Of a stretch of 64,000 bases of DNA, positions 7,336-46,315 are shown one piece after another (the first letter of the stretch is position 1; the number at the start of each line of letters is the position of its first letter). Below the pieces are notes generated by a model. The model was not told the origin of the DNA. It did not search any database and saw only the letters and a list, made by a program, of their open reading frames with translations. The stretch is taken from the NCBI GenBank assembly GCA_045132495.1, contig JBGUSK010000075.1, positions 350-64,349 of the forward strand, given 5' to 3'. The position numbers and the translations under genes were made by a program. Source of the stretch: Christensenellales bacterium. Its GTDB lineage: Bacteria > Bacillota > Clostridia > Christensenellales > Aristaeellaceae.

Positions 7336-8373
7336 ATGAAGAAATTTTTCAAAGGCCTTGCCGTTGTGGTGCTGGTGCTGCTTCTCGCCTGGCTGGTGTG
7401 CTTCATTCTGCCCAAGCCGCAGAATTTCCCCATGGATAACCCCATGATGAAAAGCAGCGAGCTGCCCATCCTCATCGCCCACGGCGGCGGCAACCGGGAG
7501 TTCCCCGACAACACCCTGGAGGCCTTCTACAACGCCTACAGCGTCGATCCCCGCGCGATGATGGAAACCGATGTGTCCATCACCAGGGACGGCGTGGTCA
7601 TCCTCTCCCACGATGTACGCCTTGACCGCAAGACCAACGTCACTGGCGAGATCGCTGAATGGAACTACACCGACCTCATCGCCCAGAAGGTCGATTTCGG
7701 CTACACGAACCAGACCAAGTCTCAGGTGCGGGTCGAAGGCAGCGAGCTGATCAAATTCACCACCGATGACGGCAAGGCTGTCACTCCGCTGGATGTGGAG
7801 TATCCCGAAGGCATCACACCTCGTGACAGTGAGGTTTTCCTCGCCACCACGCTGGAGGAGCTGATCGTCGCTTTCCCGGAGAACGCCATCAATGTGGAGA
7901 TCAAGCAGGAAGGCGAGCTGGGCATGAAGTGCATGCAGGAGGTTCTCCGCCTTCTAAAAAAGCACAACGCCTGGGATCGCGTGGTGCTGGCCTCCTTCCA
8001 CAACGACATCTACGCCGAGTACCAGCGCCTGCAGGAAACCGGTGAAGTGCCGGAGAACTTCATGTGCTCCCCCGGTTTGGGCAACGCAGCGATCTTCTAC
8101 GTCATGCATCTGCTGGGCGCCGACTCCCTGTTCCAGGATGATATGTGCGTCTTCCAGCTGCCCATCGACTACTCCCTTGCCGGACTGACCTTCGATCTGG
8201 CTACTGAATACCTGGTGGATACGGCCCACAAGCATAACCTGGCCGTGCACTACTGGACGATCAATGATCCCGAAGAAATGCGCATGCTGATCGGCATCGG
8301 CGCGGACGGCATCATGACCGACTACCCTCACCGCCTGGCGGAGGTGTACGCTGAGTATGCCGAAGCGGAATAA
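7336..8373 (+). CDS. Glycerophosphodiester phosphodiesterase family protein, N-terminally membrane anchored
   Basis: GDPD signature IAHGGGNREFPDNTLEAF plus a later HYWTIND. N-terminal hydrophobic anchor. SD AAAGGAG. Confidence 0.85.
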   Translation: MKKFFKGLAVVVLVLLLAWLVCFILPKPQNFPMDNPMMKSSELPILIAHGGGNREFPDNTLEAFYNAYSVDPRAMMETDVSITRDGVVILSHDVRLDRKTNVTGEIAEWNYTDLIAQKVDFGYTNQTKSQVRVEGSELIKFTTDDGKAVTPLDVEYPEGITPRDSEVFLATTLEELIVAFPENAINVEIKQEGELGMKCMQEVLRLLKKHNAWDRVVLASFHNDIYAEYQRLQETGEVPENFMCSPGLGNAAIFYVMHLLGADSLFQDDMCVFQLPIDYSLAGLTFDLATEYLVDTAHKHNLAVHYWTINDPEEMRMLIGIGADGIMTDYPHRLAEVYAEYAEAE

Positions 8374-8386
8374 CTCCATGCACACA

Positions 8387-8423
8387 CAGCCCGGAGGCAG
8401 TCGCTTCCGGGCTGGTTCTTTTT
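8387..8423 (+). terminator. Rho-independent terminator
   Basis: Stem CAGCCCGGA / TCCGGGCTG followed by GTTCTTTTT. Confidence 0.65.
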
Positions 8424-19593: not shown

Positions 19594-20001
19594 TCACGCC
19601 TTCTGGTCGAACTGGTGCCTGCACACCGGGCAGGTGATGTGCTTCTCCCCGCACCCGCGGCGCAAGCGCAGGCGGTTCTTGCAGGAGGGGCAGCGGAAGT
19701 ACTTGTACTCCTTCGTACCCTTGAGGCGCAGGAAGAATTGCTTCACTTCCTTCTGCCAATTGTTCGCGAACTGCACGTAGCGGGCATTTTCCGCCTGACG
19801 CTTCTGCACATTCCGGCTCAGCATGCGGAAGAGCGCATAGATATACAGCGCATGGCCAACAAGGCTCAGCAGCGGCATGCCGATGAAGGTATTCACCAGC
19901 ACGACGATCAGCCCCGCCCACAGGGCATGATAGCCCAGATTATCCACACCGTTGCGGCCCTGCATGAAGCGCATGATCGCCATTTTGATCCGAGTCCACA
20001 T
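19594..20001 (-). CDS. Membrane protein with C-terminal zinc ribbon
   Basis: Trimmed to ATG 20001 (SD GAAGGAAG). Two TM helices followed by CPSCKN...CPVCRH. Confidence 0.6.
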   Translation of the reverse strand: MWTRIKMAIMRFMQGRNGVDNLGYHALWAGLIVVLVNTFIGMPLLSLVGHALYIYALFRMLSRNVQKRQAENARYVQFANNWQKEVKQFFLRLKGTKEYKYFRCPSCKNRLRLRRGCGEKHITCPVCRHQFDQKA

Positions 20002-20104
20002 AAGTCTTCCTTCTTTCCACGGGACAAGCCCGTCCCATTCCATGATACATTATAAATTATAATTGAGATTTTTCAACCGAATATGAACAGATATGCAAAG
20101 TTGA

Positions 20105-33105: not shown

Positions 33106-33176
33106 TGGGGAATGGTGTAACGGTAGCACCTGCGACTCTGACTCGTATTGCCTAGGTTCGAATCCTAGTTCCCCAG
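33106..33176 (+). tRNA. tRNA-Gln (anticodon CTG)
   Basis: Cloverleaf read by eye: acceptor TGGGGAA/TTCCCCA, anticodon arm TGCGA-CTCTGAC-TCGTA, T-arm CTAGG-TTCGAAT-CCTAG. CCA is not encoded. Confidence 0.9.
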
Positions 33177-33184
33177 CTTTATAT

Positions 33185-33257
33185 GCCTCCGTTGTCTAGA
33201 GGCCTAGGACGCGGCCCTCTCAAGGCTGAAACAGGGGTTCGAATCCCCTCGGAGGTG
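33185..33257 (+). tRNA. tRNA-Glu (anticodon CTC)
   Basis: Acceptor GCCTCCG/CGGAGGT, anticodon arm CGGCC-CTCTCAA-GGCTG, T-arm AGGGG-TTCGAAT-CCCCT. Confidence 0.85.
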
Positions 33258-33261
33258 CTTA

Positions 33262-37454: not shown

Positions 37455-37682
37455 CAAAATAAAAACCGTCTCACATAAATGAGACGGATTATCCGCGGTA
37501 CCACTCAAATTGCCGTGTCGTTCGGCCACTCGATGCCTTAACGCGGCGAACGCCCACAGGGGGAACTCACGGGGTGAAATTCATCCGTCAGCACCCTTAC
37601 GGCTTTTCAGCATGCAGCCGCTCTCTGTGAAGGGAAAGCTGGGGGTTACTGTGTCCCGGTCATCGTTGTTGATATTGAATAC
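37455..37682 (-). promoter_or_regulatory. T-box leader (Phe specifier UUC) with terminator/antiterminator
   Basis: Minus strand shows AGAGAG, a specifier context GAAUUUCACC (UUC at 37578-37576 followed by A), the T-box AAUUUGAGUGGUACCGCGG, then terminator CCGTCTCA..TGAGACGG plus a T-run. Confidence 0.85.
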
Positions 37683-38775: not shown

Positions 38776-39468
38776 TTACACCAACCGCTGCATGCCAAGC
38801 GTGAGCCTTTCCTGCACCCGGCAGAGGAACTCCCGGTTGGTGGGCTTCCCCTTCTCCGGATCAACGCTGGAGCCGAAAAAACGCTCCATCGCCGCAAGGC
38901 TGCCATGTATCCAGGTGGACTCCACGCACAGCCGCAGGCTCCGCTCCACCCCGGCAGCGGTCATGCCGTATTTCCTGGCAATCAGGGGATACAGCCCATG
39001 CTGGAGATCCTTCAGCAGCGGCGGATGCACCACCGTCAGCGCGCACATTTCCGGCAGAAACTGCCATGCCCGCAGCCGTCCCGGCACCGCCAGCGTCCGC
39101 AGGAGCGCGGCAGCGATGTCCATCGTGGCTGGCAGATGTCGCTCCGCCATCACCGGCAGACGCCCCTCCTTCTGCCAGGCATGCAGCAGCACAGGCAGTT
39201 CCGCCACAGCGGGGAGCGCTCCATCCGGTGCACCTGTCCCCAGCACATAGGGCGGCGCAAGGAGCGGATGCTCTGCCAGCGAGCGCAGCAGCCGTTTGCT
39301 TTCTCCTCCCGGCAGGAGAAGCAGCACATCCGCCCATTCCCGCAGGAGAAGAGCGGCCTGTTCCGCGCTGGCAGCCGGCGTGCAGCGCCAGTCCGCCCCC
39401 AGATCCTCCACCGCAAATTGCCACTGCCGCCCGGTATGCTCCGACGGCGCAAGTACGATCACATCCAT
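38776..39468 (-). CDS. Spo0A-like regulator: Spo0A C-terminal DNA-binding domain with a degenerate receiver domain
   Basis: The C-terminal YPLIARKYGMTAAGVERSLRLCVESTW...GKPTNREFL closely resembles the Spo0A_C signature. The N-terminus lacks the DD pocket and the phospho-acceptor Asp (VIVLAPSEH, DVLLLLPGG). Confidence 0.7.
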   Translation of the reverse strand: MDVIVLAPSEHTGRQWQFAVEDLGADWRCTPAASAEQAALLLREWADVLLLLPGGESKRLLRSLAEHPLLAPPYVLGTGAPDGALPAVAELPVLLHAWQKEGRLPVMAERHLPATMDIAAALLRTLAVPGRLRAWQFLPEMCALTVVHPPLLKDLQHGLYPLIARKYGMTAAGVERSLRLCVESTWIHGSLAAMERFFGSSVDPEKGKPTNREFLCRVQERLTLGMQRLV

Positions 39469-43917: not shown

Positions 43918-44044
43918 TCGGGCGAGCAAACCACGCTGCAAATAAATCCGAAAAACCTTCGTGCAGCTTATTGACAATGGGCATAATGGGCTTTATAATG
44001 GTCATAATGGAAAATGTTTTATTTGGTCGAAGGAGGCCTGTTTC

Positions 44045-44947
44045 ATGGAGTCCTACCTGTTTACGAATGTTGAAGCCGCGGCCGACACCCTCGTGGTGGA
44101 AGGCTGGCATAAGCCCGGTACCCTGACCCGCTCCAGCGGCGCGTGGATCCACGCCGCAGGCACCGCCATGTTTGAGAAGGGCGAGGTAGCCCTCAACAGC
44201 CACGAGCAGTGGATCTGGTTTGCCGTAGAGGCAGGCGAAGTCACGCTGCACTGGCAGGACAATGACCTGAAGCTCAAGGCCGAGGACACCTGCTTCCTCC
44301 CCGCAGGCGAGCATCAGGCGTACCTCGAGGTTCCCGAGCAGGCCCGCGTGCTGTGGGTCGCCCTGGAGGGCAATCTGGCCCCCATGGTCGTGCGCAAGAT
44401 GGGCGCGCTGCTGCATATGCCCCTGCGTCAGGGCGCGCTGCCCAGCCAGATGTACCTGGCCAAGCAGATCGTGCAGGTCATGGTGCGTCATTCCGGCACG
44501 GCGGACGCCACCTATCAGCTCCAGCACCTGATGTACGGCATGCTGGCCAGCCACTGGGGTCAGCCTGTCGCCATGGACGCGATGCTCTCCCACGAGATCG
44601 CCAAGGTGGTGGACACCCTGCGCGCTAACCAATACCGGGATAATTTCTCCCTGGCGGAAATGGCCGCGATCTCCCGCATGCCCATGGAGACCTTCCGCAA
44701 GCGTTTCGTGAGCGAAGTGGGTATGCCTCCGCTGAGCTACGTCCTCCACTGCAAGATGGAGCGCGCCAAGGAGCTGCTGCGCGAAGAGGGCCACACCGTC
44801 CGCCAGGCCGGTATCGAGGTCGGCATGCAGGACCCCTACCATTTCTCCAAGCAGTTCAAGAACATCGTGGGCATCAGCCCCTCCGCGTTCATGAAGCAGG
44901 CCGCCAAGCCGGACGCCACCATCCGCGGCAGCAGCAAGAACAAGTAA
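44045..44947 (+). CDS. AraC family transcriptional regulator
   Basis: Trimmed to ATG 44045 (SD GAAGGAGG). Cupin-like N-terminus and a C-terminal double HTH (PPLSYVLHCKMERAKELL ... DPYHFSKQFK). Confidence 0.8.
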   Translation: MESYLFTNVEAAADTLVVEGWHKPGTLTRSSGAWIHAAGTAMFEKGEVALNSHEQWIWFAVEAGEVTLHWQDNDLKLKAEDTCFLPAGEHQAYLEVPEQARVLWVALEGNLAPMVVRKMGALLHMPLRQGALPSQMYLAKQIVQVMVRHSGTADATYQLQHLMYGMLASHWGQPVAMDAMLSHEIAKVVDTLRANQYRDNFSLAEMAAISRMPMETFRKRFVSEVGMPPLSYVLHCKMERAKELLREEGHTVRQAGIEVGMQDPYHFSKQFKNIVGISPSAFMKQAAKPDATIRGSSKNK

Positions 44948-44954
44948 TATCAGG

Positions 44955-44982
44955 GTCGCACCGTGGCGGTGCGGCCTTTTTG
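44955..44982 (+). terminator. Rho-independent terminator after the araC-family gene
   Basis: 9-bp stem GTCGCACCG / CGGTGCGGC followed by CTTTTT. Confidence 0.7.
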
Positions 44983-45340
44983 TGTGGATATGTCCAGCGC
45001 TTTCCCAGCGGCCTAAGCAACACAAATCCTTTGGGGATTTGACATTTTCGTTACGGACTAAACTTTCGGTTTTGTTATTTCCGACCCTCAGGGCAACCGA
45101 ATGAAGCAATACATCTCTGCCGAACATACACGAACGCGCATAATTATTCATTTTGTCACATGTGTAAACAGGCAAAAAAATACAATAGTGCATGTCCACA
45201 TGAATATCCACATATGATTTCATTGAGGATAACATTTGTGGATAACCTGTGGATAATGTGGATAACCGCGATACAAAGCGCGTAAATCCGCCACTTTTCC
45301 CCTGTTGAATTGTGGATAACCCTGTGGACACTGTGGATGA
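44983..45340. promoter_or_regulatory. Cluster of DnaA boxes (candidate DnaA-binding region or origin-like element)
   Basis: Perfect TGTGGATAA at 45237, 45248, 45257 and 45311. One mismatch at 44983, 45204 (opposite strand), 45224 and 45332. Two mismatches at 45192 (opposite strand) and 45323. An A/T-rich tract lies at 45140-45190. Confidence 0.7.
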
Positions 45341-45538
45341 AACAACTCTTTGGCTGTGCATACGCCACGTTTATGAAGATGTATAAGCGCATATTCTTCG
45401 CAAAATCGGCATGCCGCGGGCGAACATTCGTCCGAAACACGCTGTTTTTTGTATGCATGCAAACTGTATACACGAAGGAAATCCTGCAAGGTATGGCAAA
45501 AGCGGGGGCTGCATAGGCTTTTTCACGGAGGTTTTGCC

Positions 45539-46315
45539 ATGAAAGCATCAGAACGCCCCATTCTCCCTCGCAAAAAAGCCGAACATCTGGTGACGCTCGC
45601 TGCCGCATTGCTCGTACTGATCGGCGGCCTCACCGCTGTCGCCGCATGGCGGAAAAAAGACACAAATGCGTCATCGTCCGGGCCGATGCCCTCCCCCGCC
45701 CTGACGGCGGCGCCCGGGCCACTAAGCGGTTTGGTCATCGCCGTTGACCCGGGCCATGGCGGTTATGACGGCGGCGCGCGGTGCCGGGATTCCGGCGTGT
45801 GGGAAAAGGAAATCAACCTGTCCGTGGCGCTGGAGGTAGCGAAAGCCCTCACCAGTCAGGGCGCGCAGGTGGTCATGACCCGGACGGAGGACGCTGACCT
45901 GTGTGAAGTCAACCGTCCCGCCGGGCTGACGAAAAAACGCCAGGACATGCAAAACCGCGTCGCCATTGCCCGGGACAATCAGGCGGACATGGTGATCTCC
46001 GTTCACATGAACGAATACCGCGTGCGCTCGGAATCCGGGCCGCAGGTGTTCTACCGGGAGGGTTGCGACGCAGGCCGTCTGCTGGCAGGATGTGTGCAGG
46101 CCGCGATGATCCAGCATCTTCAGCCAGCAAAGGAACGGGTCGCGATGGCCGGAGATTACTTCATATTGCAGCTGGATGTGCCATCGGTTCTGGTGGAATG
46201 CGGGTTCATTTCCAACCCGACAGAGGAAAAGCTGCTGCTGGATGCGGCTTATCAGGCGCGCATCGGAGAAGCCGTCGCGGAGGGTGTGCTGGAATTCATT
46301 CGGCTGAGACAATGA
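45539..46315 (+). CDS. N-acetylmuramoyl-L-alanine amidase, CwlD-like
   Basis: Trimmed to ATG 45539 (SD GGAGG). N-terminal TM helix, then VDPGHGGYDGGA ... ISVHMNE, as in Amidase_3/CwlD. Confidence 0.8.
   Translation: MKASERPILPRKKAEHLVTLAAALLVLIGGLTAVAAWRKKDTNASSSGPMPSPALTAAPGPLSGLVIAVDPGHGGYDGGARCRDSGVWEKEINLSVALEVAKALTSQGAQVVMTRTEDADLCEVNRPAGLTKKRQDMQNRVAIARDNQADMVISVHMNEYRVRSESGPQVFYREGCDAGRLLAGCVQAAMIQHLQPAKERVAMAGDYFILQLDVPSVLVECGFISNPTEEKLLLDAAYQARIGEAVAEGVLEFIRLRQ

What the first reader, a model, noticed from the sequence alone, without database searches (positions are those of the whole stretch)
44983..45340. Dense orphan DnaA-box cluster in a 590-bp ORF-free, partly A/T-rich gap with no dnaA gene nearby
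Four perfect TGTGGATAA boxes (the complement of TTATCCACA) lie at 45237, 45248, 45257 and 45311. Four one-mismatch boxes lie at 44983, 45204, 45224 and 45332, and two two-mismatch boxes at 45192 and 45323. Under uniform base composition a given 9-mer or its complement is expected about 0.5 times in 64 kb, so four copies within 83 bp is far from chance. Three boxes are nearly contiguous (45237-45265). An A/T-rich tract (45140-45190) lies just upstream, and the whole 44948-45538 gap has no credible ORF. In Firmicutes such arrays mark oriC (normally flanking dnaA) or secondary DnaA-box clusters that titrate or are regulated by DnaA. Here the neighbours are an AraC regulator and a CwlD-like amidase. 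This could be a displaced or secondary origin, a DnaA sink, or DnaA control of the amidase gene.
Basis: partly seen in the sequence, partly recalled or inferred. Interest (0 to 1): 0.7.

Follow-up and report, generated by a model that had tools for sequence, protein, structure and literature searches.

The report
Conserved non-origin DnaA-box cluster beside cwlD
The dense cluster of DnaA-binding sites is real and strongly conserved, but it is most likely not a replication origin: it looks like the clostridial counterpart of a known secondary DnaA-binding site that sits downstream of the tsaD (gcp) gene in Bacillus subtilis and whose role is still unclear.

Summary
Four perfect and four one-mismatch DnaA boxes lie in the AraC–cwlD gap, against 0.33 perfect boxes expected per window.

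The boxes form two head-to-tail triple arrays (45237-45265 and 45311-45340) plus an inverted pair (45192-45212). In seven related genomes the boxes are invariant while the spacers diverge.

The same cluster lies upstream of the cwlD-like amidase in about 30 related Clostridia genomes (Aristaeellaceae/Christensenellaceae-like). In those loci 64 of 71 perfect boxes fall in the 1 kb before cwlD.

In eight of these genomes tsaD (gcp) lies immediately to the left. Other Clostridia carry the same triple array downstream of tsaD without cwlD. B. subtilis has a published high-affinity DnaA site (DBC[gcp-ydiF]) at that position, with the same strand orientation and the same abutting pair TGTGGATAGTGTG.

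An origin is unlikely:
- There is no dnaA or dnaN in the window or in any related locus.
- There are no DnaA-trios and no conserved unwinding element.
- In most relatives, genes and GC skew run in the same direction through the cluster.

Verdict: a new member of a known kind, a secondary DnaA-box cluster that here has been separated from tsaD. Its function is inferred, not shown.

The parts
43961..44947 (+). AraC-family regulator gene, the left neighbour. This neighbour is specific to the window's lineage and is not part of the conserved unit.
   Evidence: Pfam HTH_18, HTH_AraC and AraC_binding. The left neighbour differs among relatives.
44952..44978 (+). Intrinsic terminator of the AraC gene.
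   Evidence: Stem of 12 pairs followed by a T run.
44983..44991 (-). Isolated one-mismatch DnaA box (TGTGGATAT on the + strand).
   Evidence: A lone box about 250 bp upstream of the array also occurs in L011 and L012.
45140..45190 (.). A+T-rich tract (75% A+T). It is not conserved in relatives and is not adjacent to DnaA-trios.
   Evidence: L010 has a G+C-rich hairpin at this position.
45192..45212 (+). Inverted pair of degenerate boxes (ATGTCCACA tga ATATCCACA), oriented opposite to the main arrays.
   Evidence: It is conserved as TATCCGCA..TATCCACA in the 7-genome alignment. One inverted box lies 36-57 bp upstream of the array in most relatives.
45224..45232 (-). One-mismatch box (TGAGGATAA) that leads array A.
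   Evidence: A degenerate fourth box lies at -10 to -13 in relatives.
45237..45265 (-). Array A: three perfect head-to-tail boxes, TGTGGATAA cc TGTGGATAA TGTGGATAA (offsets 0, 11, 20).
   Evidence: These columns are invariant in alignment A3.
45266..45310 (.). 45-bp spacer between the arrays. Its length is kept (44-46 bp) in close relatives but its sequence is not.
45311..45340 (-). Array B: TGTGGATAA ccc TGTGGACAC TGTGGATGA (offsets 0, 12, 21). This spacing is found across the whole clade and downstream of tsaD in other Clostridia.
45491..45518 (+). Putative sporulation-sigma-type promoter of cwlD (GTATG, 16 nt, CATAGGCT). The RBS GGAGG is at 45527-45531.
   Evidence: Direct reading. A gCATA motif lies 12-40 nt upstream of the RBS in all 11 relatives printed. 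The sigma-factor assignment is inferred from B. subtilis consensus sequences (own knowledge).
45539..46315 (+). CwlD-like N-acetylmuramoyl-L-alanine amidase gene, the right neighbour conserved across the clade.
   Evidence: Pfam Amidase_3 at 9e-43. The best NCBIfam match is TIGR02883 spore_cwlD at 191 bits, below its 221-bit cut-off.

Best explanation
This is a secondary (non-origin) chromosomal DnaA-box cluster. Two head-to-tail triple arrays of DnaA boxes, with box starts 9-12 bp apart, plus an inverted pair upstream, should nucleate a cooperative DnaA oligomer on double-stranded DNA. That would make the site a high-affinity docking and buffering site for the initiator rather than a place where DNA is unwound. 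By chains of synteny, orientation and architecture it is most likely the clostridial counterpart of the B. subtilis cluster DBC[gcp-ydiF], which lies just downstream of tsaD (gcp). In the window's lineage, rearrangements have removed tsaD from the left side, and the element now sits between an AraC gene and cwlD. Shown here: the boxes, their conservation, their architecture, the synteny, and the lack of origin features. Inferred: DnaA binding and the buffering role. That role is the general one proposed for the set of B. subtilis clusters. It was not demonstrated for the gcp-ydiF cluster on its own. Whether the element also modulates cwlD is open.
For: (1) Box density is far above chance.
(2) Conservation: in 34 cwlD loci of related Clostridia (L009-L042; 31-33 of them analysed in detail), 64 of 71 perfect boxes fall in the 1 kb upstream of cwlD, which is about 7% of 486 kb. 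The boxes are invariant and the spacers are not. The triple-array pattern is always on the same strand as cwlD and tsaD, and only at this site, in 27 loci.
(3) tsaD is the immediate, co-oriented left neighbour in 8 loci from several genera.
(4) The same triple array lies downstream of tsaD without cwlD in other Clostridia: L104, L154 (followed by a HAD hydrolase and a convergent ABC-F gene, as ydiF is in B. subtilis) and L107.
(5) The B. subtilis tsaD-ydiF gap, fetched here, has boxes on the same strand relative to tsaD, an inverted TTATCCACA upstream, the abutting pair TGTGGATAGTGTGTATAA and a lone TGTGGATAA 42 bp further on.
(6) Published work: this B. subtilis site binds DnaA stably in vivo and is 'highly conserved' downstream of gcp in Bacillus species (PMC2533591). 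In vitro it has a Kd of 0.15 uM and a 16-fold preference for ATP-DnaA (PMC4447404). Deleting all six such clusters causes early initiation (PMC3245932).
(7) Origin features are absent.
Against: - The window itself has no tsaD, so orthology to the gcp cluster rests on relatives rather than on the window.
- Most of the 80 metagenome tsaD loci from other Clostridia have no boxes downstream of tsaD. The element is therefore patchy, and convergent evolution of similar arrays cannot be excluded.
- B. subtilis shares the abutting pair but not the full 0/12/21 triple spacing.
- No binding data exist for this clade.
- In B. subtilis the gcp-ydiF cluster alone did not restore initiation control to the six-fold deletion mutant (PMC3245932), so a titration role for this particular cluster is unproven even there.
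- The pooled skew regression shows a small but significant rise from left to right of the cluster (+0.014 per side, s.e. 0.003).
Confidence: 0.75

Rival explanations
1. DnaA-dependent transcriptional control of the cwlD-like sporulation amidase. DnaA bound to the arrays would repress or activate cwlD and so link replication status to spore-cortex maturation, as DnaA does at sda, ywlC and yydA in B. subtilis. This could coexist with the best explanation.
For: The cluster lies upstream of cwlD, on the same strand, in every related locus that has enough upstream sequence. It stayed with cwlD, not with tsaD, when the left flank was rearranged. Sporulation genes are nearby (a Spo0A_C protein and spoIVB). 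A weak sigma-70-like match (ATAACA, 17 nt, GATAAT) overlaps array A.
Against: - The distance from the array to the cwlD start varies from about 180 to 570 bp.
- A recognisable sporulation-type -10 element (gCATA) lies close to the RBS, about 170 bp beyond the last box.
- The same array exists without cwlD in L104, L107, L154 and B. subtilis.
- cwlD in other Firmicutes has no boxes (L043-L088).
- The GATAAT junction is not conserved. Many relatives have TGTGGATAAcTGTGGATAA instead.
Confidence: 0.2
2. The chromosomal replication origin (oriC), or one half of a split origin, displaced from dnaA in this lineage.
For: There are nine boxes within 150 bp and a 75% A+T tract next to them. dnaA is absent from the window, so the true origin is unseen. 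Two relatives (L017, L024) have minus-strand genes on the left, plus-strand genes on the right and a negative-to-positive skew change. The pooled regression gives a small positive step across the site.
Against: - No dnaA or dnaN lies within 10 kb in any of the roughly 80 cwlD loci, nor within the 64-kb window. Firmicutes origins are reported to lie in the rnpA-rpmH-dnaA-dnaN context (PMC7561715).
- There is no run of four or more DnaA-trios ([CT]T[AT]) in the gap or in 17 relatives. The published C. difficile trio string fits this pattern (PMC7561715).
- The A+T tract is not conserved.
- In 14 of 20 relatives both flanks have the same skew sign, and about 64% of coding DNA is on the plus strand on both sides. 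tsaD reads into the cluster and cwlD reads out of it.
- In the window the genes immediately to the left (CinA, M48 peptidase, AraC) point towards the cluster. Third-codon skew shows no shift at 45 kb once gene orientation is considered.
- The B. subtilis counterpart is a proven non-origin site (PMC2533591).
Confidence: 0.04
3. The repeats are binding sites for a factor other than DnaA (iterons of an integrated element or another regulator), or a chance or low-complexity artefact.
For: Binding has not been tested in this clade.
Against: The repeated unit is exactly the 9-bp DnaA consensus. The positions that vary among relatives (TGTGGAnAn) are those tolerated in known DnaA boxes. No mobile-element genes flank it. 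It is conserved at one chromosomal position across a deep clade. Shuffles give 0 occurrences.
Confidence: 0.01

Closest known systems
B. subtilis DnaA-box cluster DBC[gcp-ydiF] (Ishikawa 2007, PMC2533591; Okumura 2012, PMC3245932; Smith and Grossman 2015, PMC4447404)
   Same: It is an intergenic, non-origin cluster of 8-10 boxes with 4 perfect matches. It lies directly downstream of tsaD (gcp) in 8 relatives of the window and in other Clostridia. The boxes read TGTGGATAA on the tsaD coding strand. It has an inverted box upstream, an abutting pair beginning TGTGGATAG|TGTG, and a lone box 40-75 bp further on. A convergent ABC-F (ydiF-like) gene follows in L154.
   Different: In the window tsaD is absent and the neighbours are an AraC gene and cwlD. 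The clostridial version has a stricter triple array (offsets 0, 12, 21), which is duplicated in the window's subgroup. B. subtilis keeps only the abutting pair, with wider spacing of the other boxes. DnaA binding is shown for B. subtilis only.
Other B. subtilis DnaA-regulated promoters with box clusters (sda, ywlC, yydA)
   Same: A cluster of boxes lies upstream of, and co-oriented with, a gene (here cwlD), in a spore-former.
   Different: The boxes do not overlap a recognisable cwlD promoter. The distance is variable. The cluster persists without the gene in other lineages.
E. coli datA, DARS1 and DARS2
   Same: These are non-coding chromosomal DnaA-box clusters outside oriC that modulate initiator availability, and their architecture (number, orientation, spacing) is conserved.
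   Different: There is no sequence homology. The IHF or Fis sites and the DARS box I/II/III arrangement were not identified here. The nucleotide-state chemistry (DnaA-ATP hydrolysis or ADP release) is unknown for Firmicutes clusters.
Firmicutes oriC (bipartite, rpmH-dnaA-dnaN; B. subtilis, C. difficile PMC7561715)
   Same: Dense DnaA boxes, including head-to-tail arrays, with an A+T-rich tract nearby in the window.
   Different: There is no dnaA or dnaN, no DnaA-trio with GC cluster, no conserved unwinding element, and no divergence of genes or skew in most relatives.

Membership tests
Non-origin DnaA-box cluster (DBC) of Firmicutes | Several DnaA boxes (consensus TTATCCACA, at most 1 mismatch) packed into a short intergenic stretch | tested here: met
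   Eight boxes with at most 1 mismatch, plus two with 2 mismatches, lie within 358 bp. Seven of the eight lie within 137 bp.
Non-origin DnaA-box cluster (DBC) of Firmicutes | Located outside oriC | tested here: met
   There is no dnaA or dnaN in the window or in the related loci, no DnaA-trios, and co-directional genes and skew through the site in most relatives. Caveat: the whole replicon was not available, so the true origin was not located.
Non-origin DnaA-box cluster (DBC) of Firmicutes | Stable DnaA binding in vivo or in vitro | not testable with these tools
   This needs ChIP-seq, IDAP-seq or EMSA with DnaA from this clade.
Ortholog of B. subtilis DBC[gcp-ydiF] | Lies immediately downstream of, and co-oriented with, tsaD (gcp) | tested here: not met
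   The window has no tsaD; its left neighbour is an AraC gene. The feature is met in 8 relatives (L026, L030, L032, L033, L034, L036, L037, L042) and in L104 and L154. In L107 two genes separate tsaD from the cluster.
Ortholog of B. subtilis DBC[gcp-ydiF] | Continuity of the element between the window and tsaD-adjacent versions (same architecture, same right-hand neighbour) | tested here: met
   The same triple array lies on the same strand 180-570 bp upstream of cwlD, both in loci with tsaD on the left and in loci without it.
Ortholog of B. subtilis DBC[gcp-ydiF] | Box architecture shared with the B. subtilis cluster | tested here: inconclusive
   Shared: strand relative to tsaD, the inverted upstream box, the abutting pair TGTGGATAG|TGTG and the lone downstream box. 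Not shared: the 0/12/21 triple spacing. The comparison is qualitative and uses one Bacillus sequence.
Firmicutes oriC | Next to dnaA, dnaN or rpmH | tested here: not met
   tblastn with DnaA and DnaN found nothing in the window or in about 80 cwlD loci.
Firmicutes oriC | DnaA-trio repeats preceded by a GC cluster, beside boxes and an unwinding element | tested here: not met
   The regex ([CT]T[AT]){4,} on both strands gives 0 hits in the gap and 0 in the whole window. In 17 relatives only two T-rich low-complexity hits appear.
Firmicutes oriC | Switch of GC skew and gene orientation at the site | tested here: not met
   Fourteen of 20 relatives have the same skew sign on both flanks, and plus-strand coding is 65% on the left and 63% on the right. 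In the window the skew tracks gene strand and shows no step at 45 kb. Only 10-kb flanks were available.
Firmicutes oriC | Supports autonomous replication, or coincides with the marker-frequency peak | not testable with these tools
   Experimental.
DnaA-regulated promoter (sda, ywlC, yydA type) | Boxes overlap or abut the promoter of the regulated gene, and the association with that gene is conserved | tested here: inconclusive
   The association with cwlD holds throughout the clade. However, the distance is variable, the likely cwlD -10 element is about 170 bp away, and the cluster also occurs without cwlD.
E. coli datA / DARS | Specific box sets with IHF or Fis sites that promote DnaA-ATP hydrolysis or ADP release | not tested
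   There is no homology to test, and the biochemistry is unknown in Firmicutes.

The most novel reading that the evidence does not exclude
The tsaD-downstream DnaA-box array is an ancient, architecture-constrained cis element shared by Bacilli and Clostridia. It has head-to-tail boxes at 9-12 bp steps, a fixed strand and an inverted box upstream. It survives even when both neighbours are exchanged. That persistence would imply a specific and still unknown job in the DnaA cycle, for example a datA-like or DARS-like switch of the DnaA nucleotide state or a chromosome-organising anchor, rather than passive titration.
Probability: 0.25. Interest if true: 0.6.

Novelty: new member of a known kind. 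Interest (0 to 1): 0.33.

Why it matters
Secondary DnaA-box clusters are a known part of initiation control in B. subtilis, but the one downstream of gcp/tsaD has no assigned function. An element with the same position, strand and core architecture recurs in distant, mostly uncultured Clostridia. It persists as an autonomous unit after its neighbours change. This argues that the element is under selection and gives a precise motif (triple array at offsets 0, 12, 21) for mutational tests. On the practical side, the result warns origin-prediction pipelines that the densest box cluster on a MAG contig need not be oriC.

Tried and rejected
- **dnaA/dnaN search:** tblastn with E. coli DnaA and DnaN against the window and all fetched loci found nothing.
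- **Raw GC skew of the window:** the curve looked V-shaped with a minimum at 25-50 kb. Third-codon analysis showed that it mostly follows gene strand, so I rejected it as origin evidence.
- **DnaA-trio, Spo0A-box and DUE searches:** no trios, no TGTCGAA, and the A+T tract is not conserved.
- **Rfam at gathering threshold:** nothing in the gap.
- **An sda-like small gene between the boxes and cwlD:** the 68-aa ORF 45310-45516 gives an unrelated peptide in the same region of L010. This was read by eye. I treated the ORF as non-coding.
- **Same-species contigs L001-L006:** they are virtually identical in the gap (3 variable columns), so they say nothing about constraint.
- **Supplementary files of the B. 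subtilis papers:** they did not give the cluster sequence. I fetched the B. subtilis locus itself instead.
- **Metagenome scan with TsaD:** it returned mostly other Clostridia (52-67% identity) without boxes. It therefore did not tell me whether tsaD in the window's own lineage keeps a second cluster.
- **The block GAACATACACGAACG...CATGTGTAAACAG upstream of the boxes:** it is shared only with L010 and same-species contigs, so it is not part of the conserved element.

Full report
**1. Observation**

The 591-bp gap lies between an AraC-family gene (43961-44947, +) and a CwlD-like amidase gene (45539-46315, +; RBS GGAGG at 45527-45531).

- It contains four perfect DnaA boxes at 45237, 45248, 45257 and 45311. 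They read TTATCCACA on the - strand.
- The whole 64-kb window has five perfect boxes against 0.33 expected, and none of 100 shuffles reached five.
- One-mismatch boxes lie at 44983, 45204, 45224 and 45332. The one at 45204, and the two-mismatch box at 45192, have the opposite orientation.
- The gap has no credible ORF and no Rfam match.
- It begins with the AraC terminator at 44952-44978.
- The tract 45140-45190 is 75% A+T.

**2. Anatomy**

The boxes are organised rather than scattered:
- an inverted pair, ATGTCCACA-tga-ATATCCACA, at 45192-45212;
- a degenerate box at 45224;
- array A, TGTGGATAA-cc-TGTGGATAA-TGTGGATAA, at 45237-45265;
- a 45-bp spacer;
- array B, TGTGGATAA-ccc-TGTGGACAC-TGTGGATGA, at 45311-45340.

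The pattern TGTGGANAA-N2-3-TGKGGANAN-TGKGGA matches twice here and never in shuffles.

**3. Context and organism**

Pfam and NCBIfam scans of the neighbours show housekeeping and sporulation genes:
- pheST with a T-box leader;
- a Spo0A_C protein;
- CinA, an M48 peptidase, rluD, lspA and spoIVB;
- sugar hydrolases and transporters.

There is no dnaA, dnaN, rpmH or gyrB. The amidase best matches TIGR02883 (spore CwlD) at 191 bits, below the 221-bit cut-off.

Homologues of the amidase are named Aristaeellaceae or Clostridia MAGs (taxonomy). I also know this group as Christensenellales in GTDB. The window has about 59% G+C.

**4. Conservation**

I scanned one genome per species with a CwlD alignment and obtained 80 loci.

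- In the 34 loci from related Clostridia (L009-L042, CwlD 42-68% identical), 64 of 71 perfect boxes lie in the 1 kb upstream of cwlD. That region is about 7% of 486 kb.
- In cwlD loci of other Firmicutes (L043-L088) there is no cluster.
- The architecture recurs. A head-to-tail triple sits at offsets 0, 12 and 21 (or 0, 11, 20; or a pair at 0 and 9-10). A degenerate box lies about 10 bp before it. An inverted TTATCCACA lies 36-57 bp upstream. In several subgroups further boxes lie 63-95 bp downstream.
- An alignment of seven genomes shows that the invariant columns are the boxes, while the spacers diverge.
- The triple pattern occurs in 27 fetched loci. It is always on the strand of cwlD or tsaD and only at this site.

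**5. Is it the origin?**

- tblastn with E. coli DnaA and DnaN finds nothing in the window or in any fetched locus.
- No run of four or more DnaA-trios ([CT]T[AT], the complement of 3'-[G/A]A[T/A]-5' as defined in PMC7561715) occurs in the gap, in the window, or next to the arrays in 17 relatives.
- The A+T-rich tract is not conserved. L010 has a G+C-rich hairpin at that position.
- Across 20 relatives with more than 4 kb on both sides, the two flanks have the same GC-skew sign in 14. The means are +0.018 on the left and +0.043 on the right. Coding DNA is 65% on the plus strand on the left and 63% on the right.
- A pooled regression on 367 genes gives mostly positive locus intercepts (18 of 26) and only a small step across the site (+0.014, s.e. 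0.003). The step is real but far smaller than an origin switch would give. Two loci (L017, L024) do look origin-like.
- In the window the raw skew curve mainly follows gene strand, because third-codon positions are C-rich on the coding strand. It shows no shift at 45 kb. The three genes to the left (CinA, M48 peptidase, AraC) point into the cluster.

I therefore consider an origin unlikely (about 4%). The whole replicon could not be examined.

**6. What it corresponds to**

- The left neighbour varies among relatives: AraC, AlaRS, a NadR-like protein, an ABC permease or DUF4363.
- In eight loci from several genera the left neighbour is tsaD, co-oriented and ending just before the cluster.
- B. 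subtilis has eight stable DnaA-binding regions. [quoted passage not shown] It was noted to be 'highly conserved' downstream of gcp in Bacillus species, with an unclear role (PMC2533591).
- In vitro that site has a Kd of 0.15 uM for ATP-DnaA and a 16-fold preference for ATP-DnaA over ADP-DnaA (PMC4447404).
- Deleting all six non-origin clusters causes early initiation. The gcp-ydiF cluster alone does not restore control (PMC3245932).
- I fetched the B. subtilis locus. Downstream of tsaD, on the tsaD strand, it reads TTATCCACA ... GATGGATAA ... AGTGGATAA ... TGTGGATAGTGTGTATAA ... TGTGGATAA. It therefore has the same strand, an inverted box upstream, the same abutting junction TGTGGATAG|TGTG seen in L016, L017, L020 and L024, and a lone box 42 bp further on.
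- A metagenome scan with a TsaD alignment returned mostly other Clostridia without boxes.
- Several of those loci do carry the same array directly after tsaD and without cwlD:
  - L104: TGTGGATAAcctTGTGGATACTGTGGAAAA.
  - L154: TGTGGATGActtTGTGGATAATGTGGAAAA, followed by a HAD hydrolase and a convergent ABC-F gene like ydiF.
  - L126 and L132.
  - L107: tsaD, two genes, the array, then an FGGY kinase. This is the gene that follows cwlD in L042.

**7. Interpretation**

- The element is autonomous. It occurs with tsaD only, with tsaD and cwlD, or, as in the window, with cwlD only.
- The simplest history is an old DnaA-box cluster downstream of tsaD. It acquired cwlD on its right in the ancestor of this clade and lost tsaD on its left in the window's lineage.
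- Mechanistically, head-to-tail boxes at 9-12 bp steps should load a cooperative DnaA oligomer on duplex DNA. This is inferred from what is known of DnaA at oriC arrays and at the B. subtilis clusters.
- Without trios or an unwinding element, the site would hold DnaA rather than open DNA.
- A local effect on cwlD is possible but not favoured. The array-to-gene distance varies from 180 to 570 bp. All 11 relatives I printed have a gCATA motif, resembling the -10 element of sporulation sigma factors, close to the RBS. In the window this motif is 170 bp beyond the last box.

**8. Novelty and score**

This is a new member of a known kind. The extension beyond the literature I could search is that the gcp/tsaD-associated cluster, known from Bacillus and its close relatives, has counterparts with a stereotyped triple-box core in distant Clostridia. 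A search for 'DnaA box' together with tsaD found no paper.

A specialist would not be very surprised, but the conserved architecture makes the unexplained B. subtilis site more testable. Interest is 0.33.

Noticed in passing
window 38776-39468 (-): A 230-aa protein has a clear Spo0A C-terminal domain (PF08769, 1e-22) but no response-regulator receiver hit at E<=0.1. The N-terminus (MDVIVLAPSE...) lacks the usual acidic pocket, so it may be a degenerate-receiver Spo0A or a paralogue.
   Followed up: partly
window 1-64000: Third-codon GC skew follows gene orientation (the coding strand is C-rich at position 3), so raw GC-skew curves here trace gene strand rather than replication. Exceptions are the genes at 37.7-39.5 kb, 1-2 kb and 11.6-12.5 kb.
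   Followed up: partly
window 45110-45175: The block GAACATACACGAACG...CATTTTG.CACATGTGTAAACAG upstream of the boxes is shared only with L010 and same-species contigs. In L010 it ends in a terminator-like hairpin. It may be a lineage-specific promoter or small transcript.
   Followed up: partly
window 37477-37672 (-): A T-box leader (RF00230, 99.6 bits) lies upstream of pheS-pheT. tRNA-Gln and tRNA-Glu lie at 33106-33258.
   Followed up: no
window 19940-19948 (+): The only other perfect DnaA box in the window. It stands alone near the 5' end of ORF 19594-20043 (-) and upstream of the 916-aa ORF at 20083.
   Followed up: no
L116, L122, L125, L137, L144 (about 1.3-1.6 kb after tsaD): In other Clostridia a 16S rRNA gene starts about 1.3-1.6 kb downstream of tsaD, and many metagenome contigs end roughly 1-2 kb after tsaD.
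   Followed up: no
L120 about 8300-8400; L149 about 2140-2260: Low-GC metagenome contigs carry other DnaA-box clusters with abutting pairs (TTATGCACATTATCCACA; TTATCCACGTTATCCACA) about 5 kb from tsaD, followed by A+T-rich DNA. They could be origins or other secondary clusters.
   Followed up: no
L017 and L024 (relatives): These are the only two relatives in which the cluster coincides with minus-strand genes on the left, plus-strand genes on the right and a negative-to-positive skew change. It is unclear whether this is coincidence, a rearrangement boundary or an origin-proximal location.
   Followed up: no
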